A stretch of 64,000 nucleotides of DNA from a virus: UHGV virus genome UHGV-0141727. One strand, 5' to 3'. Below, in pieces: positions 15,304 through 31,001 of this stretch; within the stretch, counting starts at the first letter, position 1, and every line of letters begins with the position of its first letter. Under the pieces are notes generated by a model that did no database searches, was not told the DNA's origin, and saw nothing but the letters and a program-made list of their open reading frames with translations. Position numbers and translations under genes: made by a program.

Positions 15304-15756
15304 AACGTCTCCTTTTTTACACGCGCGACTATCCCCCGGCTGAACCGGTAGTGACGTCGTAACTTCGTATTAATTAAGGGTTACAGCCTGAGCGGCTATA
15401 TGATGAATTGAAAGGAGTTGTGGCGGTGGTGCCTCCACCTGCCAGGTTAGCCACGCCCGGCGACGACACTTATCAGAACGTAGTGAATGAAAATGGCTTC
15501 GTCACGAGCGCATAGCCGCAATTACCACAACGGAGAAGGCGCTCGTATTAATTAAACACCTTTTCCTGTTGTACGCCGTGCTATTCCGGCTGTCACACCG
15601 AATCGCCAGGATGGTGAGTCCCTGAGTCCGCTATCCTACCAACGGTGACTTGCACATTCCGGCTACCTGATGTGCCCATGCAGTGTTAGTAAGGCACCTA
15701 ACAGCTACACCAGACCGCTAACGACGCATGTGCCATACGCCGTGTTACAACCAAAT

Positions 15757-15832
15757 GTGGTGGCCCCTACCGGACTTGAACCGGTGACCGTGCGATTATG
15801 AGTCGCCCGCTCTAACCACTGAGCTAAAGGGC
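15757..15832 (-). tRNA. tRNA with CAU anticodon, ileX-like (tRNA-Ile2 lysidine type; tRNA-Met by anticodon alone)
   Basis: GGCCCTTTAGCTCAGTGGTTAGAGCGGGCGACTCATAATCGC...GGTTCAAGTCC...CCA; close to E. coli ileX as recalled. Confidence 0.8.
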
Positions 15833-16261
15833 CAGATTACTGTTAATTACGCTTACGCTTTTTGCCAGAACCGCGTAAGGCTTTTGCCGCTTGCTCTACC
15901 CCGTATGCAACCACCAGCAGAAACAATAATGTCCACTCCGGGTTTTTATCGGCAAACGCCCAAAAATCCATCACTTGCAGCCACCTTTTAAGACAAACAC
16001 CATTGCTGTTAGGTTGCGGTGCCGGGTGCCTCCCGGTGACGTTAACCAGTTAACAATTAACGCCGGATCACTTATGGATTCTCGTTACGCCAGTAAAAAG
16101 ACCACCTTTACTGTTTTAACTGTACCGCGTGCGCTTAGCCGCATTCACCGCAATGGTAAGAGCACTTGGCTGGCTGGGCGGCGATGACGCCTGTACGCAT
16201 TTGGTGATCCGGTTCTGCTTCCGGCATTCGCTTAATTAGCCAAATACTCTTAACGTTGCGA

Positions 16262-16348
16262 TGGCGGAGAGTAATGGAATCGAACCATCATCGCTTGCGC
16301 GACGGGACGGATTTCAAGACCGCTTGAGCACCATGCTCCCTACTCTCC
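16262..16348 (-). tRNA. class II tRNA, probably tRNA-Ser(UGA)
   Basis: 87 nt, acceptor GGAGAGT/ACTCTCC, loop CUUGAAA, long variable arm, T-loop GGTTCGATTCC, encoded CCA; anticodon stem is imperfect. Confidence 0.55.
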
Positions 16349-16500
16349 AGTGATTGTGGTGGTCGGTGCTGATCTCCGACTGCGCCTCTTTTTTTCATAG
16401 CCCATAAGGCCGGTCAGTGCGCTTGATGACTGAGGCATCGATATTTACTACGCCGCGTCGTTGCCATAGGGCGGACTTGCGCGCCAGCAACGCGCATTCA

Positions 16501-16588
16501 CCACAACGGTAAGGGTACTTCGTAGGGATTCGAACCCTCTGCCAAGCACGGCGATCTCCGACGTCGCAAAATACCCTTACCTGTTGTG
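16501..16588. other. tRNA-like element: T-arm-like palindrome between 16-17-bp inverted repeats
   Basis: CACAACGGTAAGGGTA ... AGGGATTCGAACCCT ... TACCCTTACCTGTTGTG; no canonical cloverleaf found. Confidence 0.3.
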
Positions 16589-16589
16589 T

Positions 16590-16665
16590 TGGTGCCGGTT
16601 AACGGACTCGAACCGCTGACATCCTGCTTACAAGGCAGGCGCTCTACCAACTGAGCTAAACCGGC
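16590..16665 (-). tRNA. tRNA-Thr(UGU)
   Basis: GCCGGTTTAGCTCAGTTGGTAGAGCGCCTGCCTTGTAAGCAGG...GGTTCGAGTCC...ACCA. Confidence 0.85.
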
Positions 16666-16669
16666 AATT

Positions 16670-16756
16670 TGGTGGGGAGTGATGGAGTCGAACCATCCGA
16701 GTCGCAATGACAGTAGATTTACAGTCTACCCCGCTACCCCTACGGACTAACTCCCC
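16670..16756 (-). tRNA. tRNA-Tyr(GUA), class II
   Basis: GGGGAGT acceptor, loop CTGTAAA, long variable arm, GGTTCGACTCC, CCA. Confidence 0.8.
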
Positions 16757-16761
16757 TAAAT

Positions 16762-16838
16762 TGGCGATGGTGGGTGGATTCGAACCACCGACCGACAGCT
16801 TAGAAGGCTGCTGCTCTATCCTACTGAGCTACACCATC
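16762..16838 (-). tRNA. tRNA-Arg(UCU)
   Basis: GATGGTGTAGCTCAGTAGGATAGAGCAGCAGCCTTCTAAGCTGT...GGTTCGAATCC...GCCA. Confidence 0.8.
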
Positions 16839-18151
16839 ACTTGCCGGGTACGTCTCCGGCGAGGGCTTCCACCTCCGTATGCTTTTCGGCGCACCGCGCC
16901 CTGGCTGCAATTCGGTAACAGGGGATGCACAACCCTGGCTTCCAGCGTGATTAGCGCCTTCAGCATGACGGGATATACCCGTTACAAGACATTATTCCAG
17001 AAAGCCATTAACCAATGGCTGTTACGCGGGAAGGACGTAACAGGTAAGGGCGCTGACCAGAAAGACCTGACCCTTCTCATTCATCTGGTTAATCACACCA
17101 GCGCCCTTGCCTGTTATGCCTCCCCGTTCCCTAATACACAGACGGGGACACTCTGCGGTCGATTTTTTGACGGGGGACGACTCATACCCCGTGGCGTCAG
17201 GCTTCTTAGGCCGCTACCATCATCAGATCATCGTTTGCATTTACTTTAATGGTCGGGTTCTAAACCGCCGCAAAGTCGCTAACCATGACGAAAACACTGA
17301 AAAAACACCCACCCGAAGGTGGGCAAATATCCCACTCGCGGTATTGCCACTTAGGCGTATGGTCAACCTGGCAACTCGGTGTCCTCAACGGGGAAGGAAT
17401 AACCCCGCCATACTTACCGCCGCGCCTGTCGCGGTTATCGCTACGTATCAACATAAAAGCCGACTGCCTGAGCAAGATTCACTTTCAAAGGCCCGCAGAA
17501 AGGAATCCATAGTCGGCTTTTATCTTGAAGCGGCTCTCTCTCCGCCCGTCACCGTCCTATCCCGGTTGTCGCGTTTGCCACGCCAGCCGTAACGAGGTTT
17601 AAAGTCTTTTCACGTTTTCATCACTCGACTGCCGTCTATGGCTGTTCGTTGCAGCGGGGGTGCCTCCCCCTGGGGATATCCCCGGCCTTACCCCCATTCT
17701 TTCAAAACACAATGCAAGGCCACATCCGCATAGGTGCATTACCGCAACGTTAAGGAGACTCAGAGTCAGCAAAATAAGAGGAAAACCCAACTCTGCGCCT
17801 CCTTAACGTTGAGGATGTGCACTGATGATGACCCGATGCAGCCTGGCCCACTTAACATACTCACTGCCAGATCATCATCAATGAACACCTTAAAAAGACC
17901 TTCCGTGGCTCAAGTCACTGTCGTTTACTCCGTAAAATGCTCTCGCTGAAACCACTTTACGCACTAAACCTGCCGGGCATGTATTTGCACGGTGCCGGAG
18001 CTTTCCCTTACCTTAAAATTTACTTTCTAACACTTAAATTTGTTTTATGCTGGTGGGGAAAGACAATGAAGTGACTATCAAACCCGCAAGCGACATGGGA
18101 AGCTCCCCACCAGCACGAAAAATTCTATGTTAAGTTAACCCCATAATCAAT

Positions 18152-18184
18152 ATGTTAGAAAAACAAATTTAATTTTCTAACATG
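18152..18184. promoter_or_regulatory. palindromic operator pair ATGTTAGAAAA-N10-TTTTCTAACAT
   Basis: Perfect 11-bp inverted arms; abuts the 3' end of the 18185 gene. Confidence 0.5.
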
Positions 18185-19393
18185 TTATTTCCAGTAAAGA
18201 TTTTCAACTCCACCGTTCTTCTTATCCCACTCGTTCGCCCATACCCGGCAAGCATCAATTATTTCCTGACGGCGATCGCCCTGCATGAACGGAATGCTTT
18301 CATGAAAGCTGCTTGGAATGCAGGCCACACTGAACACTGTATCAAACTCAGTCTGCTTGATTGCCTCCAACGTCTCTGGACGCATTTTCAATTCGTCGAT
18401 CGGTGCATCCTTAGAGTCCATAATCCGGCGATGCAAGCGTGGAAAATCCGTTTCAAGGTACGCCATAATTTTATCTGCCAGACATTCGTCTATGTCGGTA
18501 TTCCAGTCAGTTTCGAAGCCAGGAATTCGGTAGTAAAGCGGCGTTCCCCATACTGACGGGATCACATCCATCGTCAGCAGGCGGCTGGTTCTGATTTGCT
18601 GATGGTAATTTGCCGTCAGCAACGCTTCGCCACGTTGCCCAGTCTCCGCGACCAGACCATGCGGAAACTCATGGATATAGGCAATAGCTTCTCTTCCGTC
18701 ATACATTAGCGGGAATGTCTCTGGCCTTTGCCCCATGCCACAGGCGCGATTCAGATCATGACCAAGCTCTGAGCACTCTCGTTTCAATGTTTCAATAATG
18801 CTCTGCGCCGCTGCTAACTTTTTACGCAGTGTGACGAGTTCGCCTTGATACTCAACGCATTGCTGATTTAGCTTGGTTAAACGCTCTTTTAGTTCCCGAC
18901 GCTCTCTTTTCAGCGTGCGGTTATCTTTCTCCGCAACATCCAGTCGTTTTGTCAGGCTTGGCGGATAGTCTTTTTTGTAACGACTCAAATCGACTTCAGC
19001 AGATTTGCGCAGTGTATTTGCCTGCTCAAGACGCGCCTCCAGATTGCCGATCTCATTACGCATATTCGCGGCAAATTGATTAACTGCATCCCCCAGGCTT
19101 TCAACTGTCGCTGATACACCAGTGACTTGAGAAAAACGGATCAAGCCATCATTAACGGCTTGCTGATATTCCTCAAACTGATCCACCAGCTTATTGTAAT
19201 CAACTGCCCCATCATCAAGGAGCTGGTTGATTTCCGCCACCAGGTTATCTGTAGTGGCAATGACGCTCTCATGCAGTCGCTTTGACAGGTCATCGCCCGG
19301 ATTTCGTTTCTGTATAAGCGCGATTTGTGTCCGCAGCGTTTCAATTGCGGTTGAGATGATCTCCAGGCTTGATGATTCTACTTGCTGACTCAT
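18185..19393 (-). CDS. hypothetical protein (402 aa), central coiled-coil plus C-terminal domain of unknown function
   Basis: Heptad-rich charged segment about residues 100-220; operator-like motifs at both ends. Confidence 0.55.
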   Translation of the reverse strand: MSQQVESSSLEIISTAIETLRTQIALIQKRNPGDDLSKRLHESVIATTDNLVAEINQLLDDGAVDYNKLVDQFEEYQQAVNDGLIRFSQVTGVSATVESLGDAVNQFAANMRNEIGNLEARLEQANTLRKSAEVDLSRYKKDYPPSLTKRLDVAEKDNRTLKRERRELKERLTKLNQQCVEYQGELVTLRKKLAAAQSIIETLKRECSELGHDLNRACGMGQRPETFPLMYDGREAIAYIHEFPHGLVAETGQRGEALLTANYHQQIRTSRLLTMDVIPSVWGTPLYYRIPGFETDWNTDIDECLADKIMAYLETDFPRLHRRIMDSKDAPIDELKMRPETLEAIKQTEFDTVFSVACIPSSFHESIPFMQGDRRQEIIDACRVWANEWDKKNGGVENLYWK

Positions 19394-30453: not shown

Positions 30454-31001
30454 CAGTGAGCCTCCGCAATGCCGGGATTGGTAATATTGCGATACCAGGG
30501 ATTAGTGTTTGGTTGTGGGGAAGTAGAGAAACGACCAGTGAGAACGCCATACTGATCAGGGATCAGAGAACGGGCTTCTTTTTCAGTTGCGGCAATTGCG
30601 AAGTGATCACAATGTTTTTGCAGGGAGTGGAAACGCCAGATGAATTCTGGACGTGAGCAAGGATTGGCATTAACCATAGTTACGGCCTCATGTACAGGTT
30701 TAACAACCTGCAACCCGCTGCTAAACGGGTGGCAGGACGTGACGGGGTTAGCAGACTGGCGTACATGAAACCAGCAGGCCGAAGCCTCCCCATCACGCCC
30801 CACCATAATTTGGGCGTAACGTGGTTTACGGACACAAAAATACCGCAATATCGGATATCTGCGGTTGTCCGCATGTACATTCAGGCTGCTAAACCCGGTC
30901 GCAGAATTTGCTACGACGGCATGAATATAAGCCTGAACATTAGAAAGATCAACAGAATTTTTATCAGATGCTGTTTTTTTGTGACGATGTAAATCATACA
31001 T
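30453..31001 (-). CDS. hypothetical protein (182 aa), first gene of the immI-like operon
   Basis: Cys/His-rich ORF; operator-like motifs directly upstream. Confidence 0.4.
   Translation of the reverse strand: MYDLHRHKKTASDKNSVDLSNVQAYIHAVVANSATGFSSLNVHADNRRYPILRYFCVRKPRYAQIMVGRDGEASACWFHVRQSANPVTSCHPFSSGLQVVKPVHEAVTMVNANPCSRPEFIWRFHSLQKHCDHFAIAATEKEARSLIPDQYGVLTGRFSTSPQPNTNPWYRNITNPGIAEAH

What the first reader, a model, noticed from the sequence alone, without database searches (positions are those of the whole stretch)
16850..18150. 1.3-kb ORF-poor region with multiple long stem-loops upstream of the tRNA array
There are no credible ORFs here; the frames offered are Arg/Pro-rich translations. 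Long inverted repeats are present: AACGTTAAGGAG/CTCCTTAACGTT (17747-17811), CTGGTGGGGA/TCCCCACCAG (18051-18113), AAAGCCGACT/AGTCGGCTTT (17457-17519), and GC hairpins near 17316 and 17618. This suggests one or more structured non-coding RNAs or a cis-acting site.
Basis: seen in the sequence. Interest (0 to 1): 0.45.

Follow-up and report, generated by a model that had tools for sequence, protein, structure and literature searches.

The report
Phage tag-template RNA targeting host tmRNA
The "empty" 1.3 kb ahead of this phage-plasmid's tRNA genes encodes several structured RNAs. One looks like the message half of the bacterial ribosome-rescue RNA (tmRNA) joined to a stretch complementary to the host's own tmRNA, so the phage may rewrite the tag that the host adds to unfinished proteins.

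Summary
Positions 16839-18184 have no credible gene, and the stem-loops fold far better than shuffled sequence. The tRNAs lie on the minus strand, so this is the 5' part of a leftward RNA operon, homologous to the head of the P1 ban operon. It is a mosaic of three parts. (1) A D6-type promoter is flanked by three copies of a repressor-operator motif, followed by a ~670-nt hairpin-rich leader. (2) A ~100-nt module matches the sequence just upstream of DicF in Qin-type prophages and ends in an intrinsic terminator. (3) A ~460-nt RNA (17298->16839) resembles the tmRNA messenger half. It has the resume context UAAAU|GCA, a 10-codon tag ANDDLMMVAA plus UAA, a stop codon inside a hairpin, and two covarying pseudoknots. 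It has no tRNA-like domain. Its conserved 5' 50 nt are instead antisense to host tmRNA nt 57-106, which cover the resume codon and first tag codons. The element occurs unannotated in more than 530 enterobacterial phage genomes and in 660 of 5426 complete E. coli genomes. My best reading is that it docks on host tmRNA and substitutes a phage tag. That mechanism is inferred, not shown.

The parts
18153..18182 (.). Two overlapping, inverted copies of the operator-like motif AAATTTANTTTTCTAACA (18153-18170 minus, 18165-18182 plus), just upstream of the promoter.
   Evidence: the motif occurs 11 times in the window against 0.3 expected, including a site next to the C4 immunity RNA. The arrangement resembles the bivalent C1 operator Op72ab at Pban in P1. 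The P1 operator consensus itself is absent from the window.
18122..18150 (-). Sigma-70-like promoter TTGATT-17-TAGAAT reading leftward, with the transcript start expected near 18115.
   Evidence: It occupies the position of Pban in P1. The scan as a whole is not above chance, so the call rests on context: the flanking operators and conservation in the D6 clade.
18015..18032 (+). Third operator-like site, about 100 nt inside the transcript.
18043..18120 (-). 5'-terminal hairpin of the transcript (I7).
   Evidence: z = -3.7. It shows two compensatory pair changes against the D6 clade, GGGGA/TCCCC to GGGCG/CGCCC.
17449..18042 (-). D6-type structured leader. It contains hairpins I2 (17809-17894), I1 (17729-17827), GC hairpins at 17656-17685, I4 (17448-17528), and a block at ~17540-17735 that is ~97% identical to the D6 clade while its flanks are ~80%.
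   Evidence: Compensatory changes occur in I1 (G-C to A-U, twice) and I4 (read from the alignment). The leader is found only in D6-like phage-plasmids. Its function is unknown.
17338..17434 (-). Module homologous to the ~90 nt immediately 5' of mature DicF in Qin-type prophages. This is P1's annotated 'dicF-like region'.
   Evidence: It is ~92% identical to the ydfC-dicB intergenic region and present in 4416 of 5426 E. coli genomes. The mature DicF sequence is not conserved here and Rfam DicF gives no hit. The fold is not unusually stable (z = -0.2).
17300..17325 (-). Intrinsic terminator GCCCACCUUCGGGUGGGUG followed by U6. It would end a short DicF-locus-like RNA or attenuate read-through.
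   Evidence: It is conserved in P1 and D6.
17250..17298 (-). Conserved 5' domain of the tag RNA. It is antisense to E. coli tmRNA (SsrA) nt 57-107.
   Evidence: 39 bp in collinear blocks (GUUUUCGUC with nt 96-104, GCGACU with 86-91, UUGCGGC with 74-80, CCGACC with 57-62). blastn E-values are 1e-3 (window) to 2e-5 (other family members). The duplex z-score is -3.1. The domain is conserved in sequence but shows almost no internal covarying helix.
17239..17249 (-). Single-stranded linker and resume context UUAAAGUAAAU, with U at -5 and A at -4.
   Evidence: UAAAU is invariant in 33 family representatives. It is equivalent to U85/A86 of E. coli tmRNA (PMC2481249). ARAGORN's resume consensus in genuine viral tmRNAs is the same string.
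17206..17238 (-). Tag reading frame GCA AAC GAU GAU CUG AUG AUG GUA GCG GCC UAA, encoding ANDDLMMVAA plus a stop. It has no start codon or Shine-Dalgarno sequence, and there is an in-frame UAG 7 codons upstream.
   Evidence: There are 20 nucleotide versions encoding 10 peptides. All have 10 codons plus UAA. The final Ala-Ala appears in 6 synonymous codon combinations.
17192..17219 (-). P5-like hairpin that encloses the last tag codons and the stop codon.
   Evidence: helices 1-2 are 95-97% paired, with compensatory changes.
17158..17192 (-). H-type pseudoknot a. S1 is ACGGGG/CCCCGU (17192-17187 with 17175-17170). S2 is GUCG/CGAC (17181-17178 with 17161-17158).
   Evidence: helix 3 is 99% paired and helix 4 is 95.5% paired, with all four pairs of helix 4 showing double changes.
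17121..17157 (-). H-type pseudoknot b. S3 is CGCAGA/UCUGUG (17157-17152 with 17142-17137). S4 is UCCCCG/CGGGGA (17148-17143 with 17126-17121).
   Evidence: (helices 5 and 6).
17038..17117 (-). Long hairpin I3 (18-20 bp). It is the family-wide 'ACAACAGGYAAGRGC...GCYCUUDCCKGUUG' helix that encloses variable inserts. It may be an RNase III processing stem.
   Evidence: z = -5.8. One pair covaries within the P1/D6 types (CG:15, UA:9). The processing role is inference.
16839..17037 (-). P1/D6-type 3' domain, with hairpins at 17004-17019 (variable, covarying), 16968-16982, 16919-16937 and 16888-16900, and a T-like arm GCCGGagacguacCCGGC at 16843-16860. It ends where RNase P would cut 5' of tRNA-Arg.
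   Evidence: It is ~97% identical between the P1 and D6 lineages. The arm resembles the terminal arm of the STnc100-like modules.
16762..16838 (-). tRNA-Arg(UCU), the first tRNA of the array. Its 5' processing would define the 3' end of the tag RNA.
   Evidence: The processing step is inference from standard tRNA maturation.

Best explanation
The gap is the non-coding head of a repressor-controlled, leftward RNA operon, the counterpart of the P1 ban-operon leader.

Transcription starts at a promoter at 18150->18122 that is bracketed by C1-type operators. It then runs through three elements: (a) a D6-specific hairpin-rich leader; (b) a module shared with the DicF locus of lambdoid prophages, ending in an intrinsic terminator; (c) a ~460-nt RNA that abuts tRNA-Arg and would be released by tRNA processing.

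The first ~180 nt of (c) are a tmRNA-type messenger module. They contain the frame-setting UA at -5/-4, a GCA resume codon, a 10-codon tag (ANDDLMMVAA) ending Ala-Ala-UAA, a stop codon inside a P5-like hairpin, and two pseudoknots. There is no tRNA-like domain. Instead, the ~50 nt directly 5' of the resume context are antisense to host tmRNA nt 57-106. That stretch is the 3' half of PK1, the A-rich linker, the host resume codon and tag codons 1-6.

Proposed mechanism (inferred). During lytic growth the phage RNA hybridises to host SsrA and masks the host tag template. It then presents its own resume codon 11 nt beyond the duplex, comparable to the 10-nt linker after PK1 in E. coli. Stalled ribosomes rescued by the host's alanyl-tRNA-like domain and SmpB would then add a phage-specified tag. 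That tag lacks the central ENY residues and the C-terminal LAA of the host tag ANDENYALAA. From general knowledge, not tested here, those residues belong to the SspB and ClpX recognition determinants.

What is shown: the architecture, the family-wide conservation, the covariation and the complementarity. What is inferred: expression, hybrid formation and tagging.

Sub-confidences: tmRNA-derived messenger module ~0.85; complementarity to SsrA real and selected ~0.75; tag-swap mechanism ~0.4.
For: Context. The region is homologous to the P1 stretch between Pban/Op72 and the tRNAs. The operator motif occurs 11 times against 0.3 expected, and three copies flank the promoter.

Messenger module. Sub-threshold hits to tmRNA families fall on the same element in the window and in four unrelated phages, and the alignment lies on the tag frame. 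The tag frame is conserved in Schitoviridae (N4-like ECBP1), Ackermannviridae, Drexlerviridae and the unclassified phage Bas77 as well as the P1/D6 types. It has 20 nucleotide versions, always 10 codons plus UAA, and Ala-Ala in 6 synonymous forms. There is no start codon. The UAAAU|GCA context is invariant and identical to that of genuine viral tmRNAs. U85/A86 are known to set the frame (PMC2481249). For P5 plus the two pseudoknots, 94.2% of cells are paired against 36-51% when the structure is slid. 16 of 24 pairs show double changes, and 0 of 500 shuffles reach the observed values.

Antisense domain. In 24 of 27 distinct 5' domains the best duplex lands on SsrA nt ~54-108, at -42 to -51 kcal/mol against -30 to -37 for shuffles. 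Against dinucleotide shuffles z is -3.1 to -4.0, and blastn minus-strand E-values are 2e-5 to 1e-3. Three different sequence solutions pair with the same host segment, nt 80-91. The domain does not match the phage's own tag codons and forms weaker duplexes with its own tag region. It is conserved in sequence without internal covarying helices, as expected for a trans-pairing segment.

No tRNA-like domain. ARAGORN finds no tmRNA in the window or relatives but does find genuine permuted tmRNAs in the same contig set.

Spread. The element is in 532 phage records and 660 of 5426 complete E. coli genomes. It is never annotated as RNA.
Against: - There are no expression, processing or tagging data.
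- An intrinsic terminator lies immediately upstream (17325->17300), so synthesis depends on read-through or processing.
- Rfam scores are below the gathering threshold (24-33 bits against 47).
- The duplex statistics are moderate (z about -3 to -4). RNAduplex gives strong energies even for shuffles.
- Hybridisation would require PK1 of SsrA to unfold.
- It is untested whether a ribosome can accept a resume codon presented from a ~40-bp intermolecular duplex.
- One subtype (L127/L020/L040) pairs less well.
- Many family members were collected with a 17-mer that fixes the first four codons, so conservation of those codons is partly by construction. The first five members, however, came from blastn.
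- The high P1-D6 identity could reflect recent recombination.
- RNAalifold on the P1 type proposes an alternative helix that competes with the pseudoknots.
Confidence: 0.55

Rival explanations
1. Pure anti-tmRNA. The RNA is an antisense inhibitor or decoy. It blocks or destroys host SsrA (for example through RNase III cleavage of the duplex), or titrates SmpB or S1. The tag and pseudoknot part acts only as a protein-binding mimic and is never translated.
For: The complementarity covers the host resume codon and tag codons. There is a precedent in the TLD-only RNA of mycobacteriophage DS6A; a similar molecule was shown to inhibit tmRNA when expressed in E. coli (PMC4131195; PMC11915505). No tRNA-like domain is present.
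Against: The tag frame keeps its length, its stop codon and Ala-Ala through synonymous changes. The frame-setting UA is invariant. A decoy would not need a translatable frame.
Confidence: 0.2
2. Self-contained multi-piece phage tmRNA. The messenger RNA works with a phage-encoded tRNA-like partner. Candidates are the STnc100-like modules at 16506->16354 and 16153->16014, or an adjacent tRNA. The link would be base pairing, for example ACCACAA with UUGUGGU.
For: In about 20 of 35 family clusters the tag module is followed by such a module. In some members (L084, ECBP1) these have canonical D and T arms. The closing helix covaries (UUGUGGUG/CACCACAA against UUGCGGUG/CACCGCAA). The segment before the resume codon is complementary to the 5' strand of the module or tRNA.
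Against: - P1 itself lacks the module.
- Positions 3:70 are U-A rather than G:U, and no CCA is encoded.
- The modules match STnc100, a prophage sRNA family related to the Hfq-associated PasD sRNAs.
- The ACCACAA complementarity is absent in the L127 type.
- No consistent intermolecular helix scored above shuffles.
Confidence: 0.1
3. Relic. The element is a degenerate fragment of an anciently captured tmRNA. It is now kept only as a spacer and processing scaffold in phage tRNA operons, and the hairpins serve as RNase III/E sites and transcript stabilisers.
For: The element always lies in tRNA-rich, ORF-poor regions, flanked by long processing-like helices. It has no tRNA-like domain.
Against: Conservation spans several virus families (Ackermannviridae, Schitoviridae, Drexlerviridae, plus P1/D6-type phage-plasmids). 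The pseudoknots covary, the tag frame is intact and the complementarity is specific for the host. There is no similarity to host ssrA beyond the resume region, so it is not a recent capture.
Confidence: 0.08
4. DNA-level cis element or hidden protein gene. The region would be an origin, packaging or recombination site, or would encode small proteins.
For: There are many inverted repeats and an AT-rich operator cluster. Some automated records call 'hypothetical proteins' here.
Against: G-U pairs and the terminator favour the minus-strand RNA. No ORF is conserved and indels shift the frames. There are no Pfam hits. The curated P1 and D6 annotations have no CDS here.
Confidence: 0.04

Closest known systems
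tmRNA (SsrA; Rfam RF00023, permuted forms RF04321/RF01849-51)
   Same: The element shares the resume context with U-5/A-4, a GCA resume codon and a start-less ~10-codon tag beginning AND and ending AA-UAA. The stop codon lies in a P5-like hairpin, followed by H-type pseudoknots. The resume string is identical to that of genuine viral tmRNAs, standard and permuted, found in the same scan.
   Different: There is no tRNA-like domain (no acceptor stem with G3:U70, no T-arm next to CCA) and no PK1. Scores are below Rfam thresholds and ARAGORN is negative. The place of the 5' tRNA-like half, P2 and PK1 is taken by a segment antisense to the host's tmRNA.
Two-piece (permuted) tmRNA and the TLD-only RNA of mycobacteriophage DS6A
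   Same: Two-piece tmRNAs show that the tRNA-like and messenger functions can sit on separate RNA chains held together by base pairing. DS6A shows that a phage can carry only one half of a tmRNA; a similar TLD-only molecule inhibits tmRNA (PMC4131195, PMC11915505).
   Different: Here the phage carries the other half, the messenger. The proposed partner chain is the host's own complete tmRNA, and the pairing covers the host tag template rather than an acceptor or P2 helix.
P1 ban-operon leader (Pban, C1 operator Op72ab, 'dicF-like region', tRNA genes)
   Same: Window 16839-17443 is ~87% identical to P1 68729-69347, and 16839-17329 is ~97% identical. The order is the same: operator/promoter, then dicF-like region, terminator, conserved block and tRNAs.
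   Different: The promoter/operator part is replaced by ~740 nt of D6-type sequence with a different operator motif. The P1 consensus is absent. The first tRNA is Arg(UCU) instead of Asn(GUU), on the same acceptor and T-arm scaffold.
DicF sRNA locus of the Qin prophage (Rfam RF00039)
   Same: Window 17338-17434 is ~92% identical to the ~90 nt immediately upstream of mature DicF between ydfC and dicB.
   Different: The 52-nt DicF sequence itself is not present, and Rfam gives no hit at E<=10. A different short sequence plus terminator follows.
STnc100 / PasD prophage sRNAs (RF02076)
   Same: The modules downstream of the finding (16153->16014 and 16506->16354) share the closing helix, a 5' hairpin and a terminal CCGGG..CCCGG arm with the STnc100 model (39.6 bits). 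The T-like arm at 16843-16860 inside the finding is of the same kind.
   Different: The score is below the gathering threshold (47). Here the modules lie in a tRNA array and in some phages keep canonical D and T arms.

Membership tests
tmRNA (RF00023 / RF04321 and clan CL00001) | tRNA-like domain: acceptor stem with G3:U70, T-arm, 3' CCA. | tested here: not met
   ARAGORN finds no tmRNA in the window or in any of ~90 family loci, yet it calls genuine permuted and standard tmRNAs in the same scan. No cis partner for an acceptor strand was found. The nearby tRNA-like modules have U3-A70 and no CCA.
tmRNA (RF00023 / RF04321 and clan CL00001) | Start-less tag reading frame with a resume codon, a conserved upstream U/A, and a tag ending in Ala-Ala plus a stop. 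| tested here: met
   The role of U85/A86 is from PMC2481249.
tmRNA (RF00023 / RF04321 and clan CL00001) | Stop codon in helix 5, followed by pseudoknots. | tested here: met
   a P5-like helix and two H-type pseudoknots, 94% paired, 16 of 24 pairs with compensatory changes.
tmRNA (RF00023 / RF04321 and clan CL00001) | Score at or above the curated Rfam gathering threshold. | tested here: not met
   RF04321 scores 24.1 bits in the window and 26.5-33.4 bits in four other phages, against a threshold of 47.
tmRNA (RF00023 / RF04321 and clan CL00001) | Alanylation, SmpB/EF-Tu binding, tagging of non-stop products. | not testable with these tools
   Needs biochemistry or mass spectrometry.
DicF (RF00039) | The 52-nt DicF sequence and structure that pairs with ftsZ mRNA. 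| tested here: not met
   There is no DicF hit at E<=10 in 15500-18400, while the model scores 76.7 bits on the K-12 locus. Only the upstream flank is homologous.
P1-type C1-controlled promoter (Pban/Op72) | A sigma-70 promoter overlapped by paired repressor operators that recur across the genome. | tested here: met
   A promoter-like site is at 18150->18122. An overlapping inverted operator pair is at 18153-18182, and there are 11 motif copies against 0.3 expected.
P1-type C1-controlled promoter (Pban/Op72) | P1 operator consensus ATTGCTCTAATAAATTT. | tested here: not met
   There are 0 matches with up to 3 mismatches. The operator is of a different (D6-like) specificity and shares only the AAATTTA half.
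Trans-acting antisense RNA against host SsrA (proposed here) | Extended, collinear complementarity to a fixed host RNA, conserved across relatives and better than chance. | tested here: met
   the window has 39 bp and the other types analysed have 32-43 bp against SsrA 57-106. blastn E is 2e-5 to 1e-3 and z is -3.1 to -4.0. 24 of 27 domain types land on the same target, and three sequence solutions pair with nt 80-91.
Trans-acting antisense RNA against host SsrA (proposed here) | Physical duplex with SsrA in vivo, and co-variation with the ssrA of different hosts. | not tested
   Host ssrA sequences other than E. coli were not available. One genome scan for a predicted variant target gave only chance hits.
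STnc100 (RF02076), for the T-like arm and downstream modules | Rfam gathering score and consensus structure. | tested here: inconclusive
   39.6 bits against a threshold of 47 for 16015-16152. The alignment covers the closing helix and the terminal arm.

The most novel reading that the evidence does not exclude
A widespread class of phage RNAs hijacks host trans-translation in trans. The RNA base-pairs with the host's tmRNA across its resume codon and supplies a surrogate tag template. This creates a hybrid two-piece tmRNA: the host tRNA-like domain with SmpB, plus a phage messenger. Proteins from stalled ribosomes in infected cells would then receive a phage-chosen C-terminal tag (ANDDLMMVAA, ANDDVVLMAA and relatives) instead of the ClpXP/SspB degron.
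Probability: 0.35. Interest if true: 0.92.

Novelty: new variant of a known kind. Interest (0 to 1): 0.82.

Why it matters
tmRNA has been treated as a self-contained bacterial (and occasionally phage) molecule. Published surveys of viral genomes, as cited here, name phage tmRNAs only for mycobacteriophages and Bacillus phage G (PMC4131195). A later update counts 79 phage sequences without listing them in the text I could read (PMC11915505). Neither paper names P1.

This analysis finds a messenger-only relative in phage P1 and in Vi01-like, N4-like, Drexler-like and other enterobacterial phages. It is also in about 12% of complete E. coli genomes and has never been annotated as RNA.

If it works as proposed, it would be a new way for a virus to take over a host quality-control pathway. 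It would show that the two functions of tmRNA can be supplied by host and parasite separately. It would also give a natural system for retargeting the tags on rescued proteins.

It matters for three practical reasons:
- Phage therapy candidates, since many of these phages are therapeutic isolates.
- P1-based genetics.
- Annotation pipelines, which now label the region as empty or as hypothetical proteins.

Even if only the antisense function holds, it would be, to my knowledge, the first phage anti-tmRNA RNA described for enterobacteria.

Tried and rejected
- **Rfam at gathering thresholds.** Nothing was found in the region.
- **DicF membership.** Rejected. Only the flank upstream of DicF is homologous.
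- **A tRNA-like domain in cis.** I looked for T-loop motifs, CGAAAAC-type acceptor partners, reverse-complement k-mers enriched in the flanks, and RNAduplex partners for the 5' segment within +/-700-900 nt. No consistent partner scored above shuffles.
- **A new gene permutation.** The idea was that the T-like hairpin and ACCACAA before the resume codon, together with the downstream UUGUGGUG, form the tRNA-like domain. I dropped it because the T-like hairpin is weak, the predicted P2-type pairing is absent, and the L127 type lacks ACCACAA.
- **A 5'-3' closing helix in the P1 type.** RNAalifold predicts GGUUUUCGUCAUGGUUAGCG pairing with CGCUAAUCACGCUGGAAGCC. Only one-sided changes support it, and its energy is no better than shuffles.
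- **Recent capture of host ssrA.** Rejected. Same-sense similarity to E. coli ssrA is limited to the resume region (E ~0.6) and one 11-mer, GUGGAAGCCCU (E 0.47).
- **Protein coding.** There are no Pfam hits and the frames are broken by indels.
- **Literature.** No paper in the library contains the tag strings, or links tmRNA with these phage groups, or describes a phage antisense to tmRNA. The P1 genome paper is not held.
- **Genome scan for the L127-type target.** The scan with GATTGCTGACGAAAAC returned only chance 16-mer matches, none of them in a tmRNA.
- **Covariance model.** I did not build one for the family. The alignment-based counts seemed sufficient.
Full report
**1. What the region is in context**

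The window is a P1/D6-like phage-plasmid. All five tRNA genes lie on the minus strand: Met 15758-15833, Ser 16262-16348, Thr 16590-16665, Tyr 16670-16756 and Arg 16762-16838. A pmgS-like gene (18185-19393, minus) ends just to the right. The interval 16839-18184 is therefore intergenic and lies 5' of the tRNA array on the transcribed strand.

Megablast shows that phage D6 covers 90% of the region. P1, P7, SJ46 and hundreds of P1-like plasmids cover only 16839-17443. In the curated P1 record that stretch lies between the C1-controlled promoter Pban with operator Op72ab and tRNA-Asn. It carries one annotation, 'dicF-like region'.

A multiple alignment shows a mosaic:
- 16839-17329 is shared by the P1 and D6 lineages at ~97%.
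- 17330-17448 is P1-type only.
- 17449-18184 is D6-type only.

**2. Check of the observation**

The three named inverted repeats and the GC hairpin at ~17316 are present. The one 'near 17618' is really at 17656-17685. As RNA, the hairpins fold with z-scores of -3.5 to -7 against dinucleotide shuffles.

No ORF is credible, for four reasons:
- Only short frames are present.
- There is no Pfam match.
- P1 and D6 have no CDS here.
- Indels shift the frames between lineages.

**3. Promoter and operators**

A TTGATT-17-TAGAAT promoter-like site reads leftward at 18150->18122. The repeat AAATTTANTTTTCTAACA occurs 11 times in the 64-kb window against 0.3 expected. One site lies beside the C4 immunity RNA. 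Three copies flank this promoter, and two of them form an overlapping inverted pair, as in P1 Op72ab.

The P1 operator consensus itself is absent. This element therefore uses a different, D6-like repressor specificity. The operon is most likely repressed in the prophage state and expressed on induction. That is an inference from P1.

**4. D6-type leader (18121->17449)**

The transcript would begin with hairpin I7 and continue through I2, I1, two GC hairpins and I4. Compensatory changes between the window and the D6 clade support I7, I1 and I4. Only two lineages exist, however, so the power is low. A central block at ~17540-17735 is ~97% conserved while its flanks are ~80%. I could not assign a function to the leader. 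Transcript stabilisation or processing is a guess.

**5. DicF-locus module (17434->17300)**

The P1-type piece is ~92% identical to sequence found in 4416 of 5426 complete E. coli genomes. In K-12 it lies between ydfC and dicB, immediately 5' of mature DicF. DicF itself is not conserved here. A different short sequence and a strong intrinsic terminator follow. This is therefore a DicF-locus-like cassette, consisting of a shared 5' module and a swapped 3' body. It is not a DicF gene. It may yield a short RNA and attenuate read-through.

**6. The conserved block is a tmRNA-like messenger module**

A sensitive blastn search with 16839-17450 unexpectedly hit unannotated stretches in unrelated virulent phages: N4-like ECBP1, Drexlerviridae CS01, Ackermannviridae Magnus, and Bas77-type siphoviruses. 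The window and each of these phages gave sub-threshold hits to permuted-tmRNA models on the same strand. The alignment sits on the tmRNA tag frame.

On the minus strand the window reads UUAAAGUAAAU | GCA AAC GAU GAU CUG AUG AUG GUA GCG GCC UAA, which encodes ANDDLMMVAA. The other phages encode ANDDVVLMAA or ANDDLMLMAA.

A scan of viral contigs added about 90 more members. In total there are 20 nucleotide versions and 10 peptides. Every version has 10 codons plus UAA, and the final Ala-Ala is written in six synonymous ways. There is no start codon or Shine-Dalgarno sequence, and an in-frame UAG lies upstream. The U(-5) A(-4) that set the frame in E. coli (PMC2481249) are invariant.

RNAalifold predicted a P5-like hairpin enclosing the stop codon, together with several hairpins. 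I extended these to two H-type pseudoknots by inspection. This structure was then counted on a 33-sequence alignment:
- 94.2% of cells are paired, against 36-51% for slid controls.
- 16 of 24 pairs show compensatory changes.
- 0 of 500 shuffles reach the observed values.

**7. What is missing**

ARAGORN finds no tmRNA in any family member. It readily finds genuine permuted and standard tmRNAs that share the same resume string in the same contig scan. Searches for an acceptor partner, a T-arm next to CCA, or a closing helix gave nothing consistent.

Many members are followed by a tRNA-like module. In the window these lie at 16506->16354 and 16153->16014, outside the finding. Those modules match the prophage sRNA family STnc100/PasD. 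They lack G3:U70 and CCA, and P1 does not have them. The element therefore fails the defining test for tmRNA membership while keeping the messenger half.

**8. The 5' domain is antisense to host tmRNA**

The ~50 nt before the resume context are highly conserved in sequence but show almost no internal covarying helix. When folded against E. coli SsrA, they pair collinearly with nt 57-106:

| Phage segment | SsrA nt | Host feature |
|---|---|---|
| GUUUUCGUC | 96-104 | tag codons Asp-Glu-Asn |
| GUU | 93-95 | |
| GCGACU | 86-91 | A86, the -1 triplet GUC, and the first two bases of the resume codon |
| UUGCGGC | 74-80 | PK1 3' strand |
| CCGACC | 57-62 | |

This gives 39 bp in the window.

- 24 of 27 distinct 5' domains from different phage families land on the same target, at -42 to -51 kcal/mol against -30 to -37 for shuffles.
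- Against dinucleotide shuffles, z is -3.1 to -4.0. blastn on the opposite strand gives E = 2e-5 to 1e-3.
- Three subfamilies use different sequences to pair with the same host segment. These are GCGACU plus UUGCGG; GCGAUUA plus UGCGGUUUUUUA; and GCGGCUGUUUUU. This is the signature expected when the constraint is a fixed trans target.
- The domain is not complementary to the phage's own tag codons (GAU GAU CUG). Its duplexes with its own tag and pseudoknot region are weaker.

**9. Proposed mechanism and its status**

*Shown:* the architecture, conservation, covariation and complementarity.

*Inferred:* the RNA is made on derepression and released by tRNA processing at 16838/16839. It anneals to SsrA, opens PK1 and masks the host tag template. 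Its own resume codon then emerges 11 nt beyond the duplex end that abuts host nt ~54-57, which is close to where PK1 normally sits. The host linker is 10 nt. Alanyl-SsrA with SmpB would still enter stalled ribosomes, but translation would resume on the phage frame.

The phage tags keep AND... and ...AA. They replace the central ENY residues and the terminal LAA of the host tag with hydrophobic residues. By general knowledge, not tested here, ENY and LAA belong to the SspB and ClpX recognition determinants. This change might spare ClpXP, alter the fate of truncated proteins, or counter defences that cleave tRNAs or mRNAs.

The main rival is a pure anti-tmRNA inhibitor or decoy. The intact, synonymously varying frame argues against it but does not exclude it.

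**10. Spread and novelty**

The messenger module is in 532 of 50,697 phage records. These include Salmonella, Escherichia, Klebsiella, Shigella, Citrobacter, Serratia, Yersinia, Enterobacter, Cronobacter and Erwinia phages, among them Vi01 and other ~157-kb Ackermannviridae-type genomes. It is also in 660 of 5426 complete E. coli genomes, at 582 plasmid and 140 chromosomal places. It is always unannotated or called 'hypothetical protein'.

Published tmRNA surveys of viral genomes name phage tmRNAs only for mycobacteriophages and Bacillus phage G, and none for P1 (PMC4131195; PMC11915505). No paper in the library contains the tag sequences or describes a phage antisense to tmRNA.

I rate it a new variant of a known kind. 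It is tmRNA-derived, but it lacks the defining tRNA-like domain and has gained an anti-tmRNA domain.

**11. Caveats**

- There are no expression data.
- The duplex statistics are moderate.
- There is an ascertainment bias, because part of the family was collected with a 17-mer that fixes the first four codons.
- A terminator lies directly upstream.
- The geometry on the ribosome is untested.
- One subtype pairs poorly with E. coli SsrA, and its host is unknown.
- The host co-variation test could not be run.

Noticed in passing
window 16762-16838 (-), compared with L001 3914-3989: The window's tRNA-Arg(UCU) and P1's tRNA-Asn(GUU) occupy the same slot. They share the acceptor stem (GAUGGUG/CACCAUC), the T arm and the flanks, and differ mainly in the anticodon arm. 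This looks like anticodon switching on one tRNA scaffold.
   Followed up: partly
window 16501-16589 (-): An unannotated module lies between tRNA-Thr and the next element. It is a ~27-bp helix (ACAACAGGUAAGGGUAUUUUG / CGAAGUACCCUUACCGUUGU) capped by a canonical T-arm, GGGUUCGAAUCCC. The same 'long helix plus insert' unit recurs in many phages around the tag RNA, sometimes enclosing a whole tRNA-like body. It may be an RNase III processing stem or a Y-RNA-like element.
   Followed up: partly
window 16354-16506 (-) and 16014-16153 (-): There are two STnc100/PasD-like modules with a tRNA-like outline: a closing helix UUGUGGUG/CACCACAA or UUGCGGUG/CACCGCAA (compensatory), a 5' hairpin and a terminal arm. 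Rfam STnc100 scores 39.6 bits on the second, against a threshold of 47. In phages L084 and ECBP1 the homologous element keeps canonical D and T arms.
   Followed up: partly
window 8479, 9876, 14318, 19410, 31018, 32224, 62256, 62302: These are further copies of the operator-like motif AAATTTANTTTTCTAACA (11 in all against 0.3 expected). They probably map the repressor regulon of this D6-type immunity group. The P1 operator consensus is absent.
   Followed up: partly
window 30725-30810 (-) and 30878-30930 (-): C4 antisense RNA and its a1/b1 target sites score above the Rfam thresholds. This is the immI region expected in a P1-like element.
   Followed up: no
window ~17540-17735 (-), especially 17553-17623: A block of the D6-type leader is ~97% identical to the D6 clade while its flanks are ~80%. 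Part of it has an 81%-identity hit in Klebsiella phage Kp4865-1. It may be another conserved RNA element.
   Followed up: no
window 16875-16885 and 16937-16951 (-): GUGGAAGCCCU is identical to E. coli SsrA nt 202-212 (PK3 region), and AUCACGCUGGAAGCC resembles nt 197-210, both in the same sense (E 0.47 and 3.4). This may be chance or a trace of further tmRNA ancestry in the P1-type 3' domain.
   Followed up: no
loci L105, L108, L113, L119, L121, L125, L130 and others (viral contigs): About 30 viral contigs carry genuine permuted (two-piece) tmRNA genes, and at least one standard gene, with tags such as ANDDSFTPMALAA and ANDDFAPVDYALAA. They have the same resume string UAAAUGCAAACGAUGAU as the enterophage element.
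   Followed up: no
L007 (Bas77) ~40 nt upstream of the tag RNA; L009 (Magnus) ~115 nt upstream: In virulent phages the tag RNA has its own strong promoter-like sites: TTGACA-17-TAGATT in Bas77 and TTGTCA-16-TATAGT in Magnus. I read these from the sequences, not from the promoter-scan tool.
   Followed up: no
window 15843-15974 (-): A 43-aa ORF (MMDFWAFADKNPEWTLLFLLVVAYGVEQAAKALRGSGKKRKRN) lies inside the tRNA/sRNA array. It is possibly the TciB/DUF3927-like small membrane protein annotated in D6-like plasmids.
   Followed up: no
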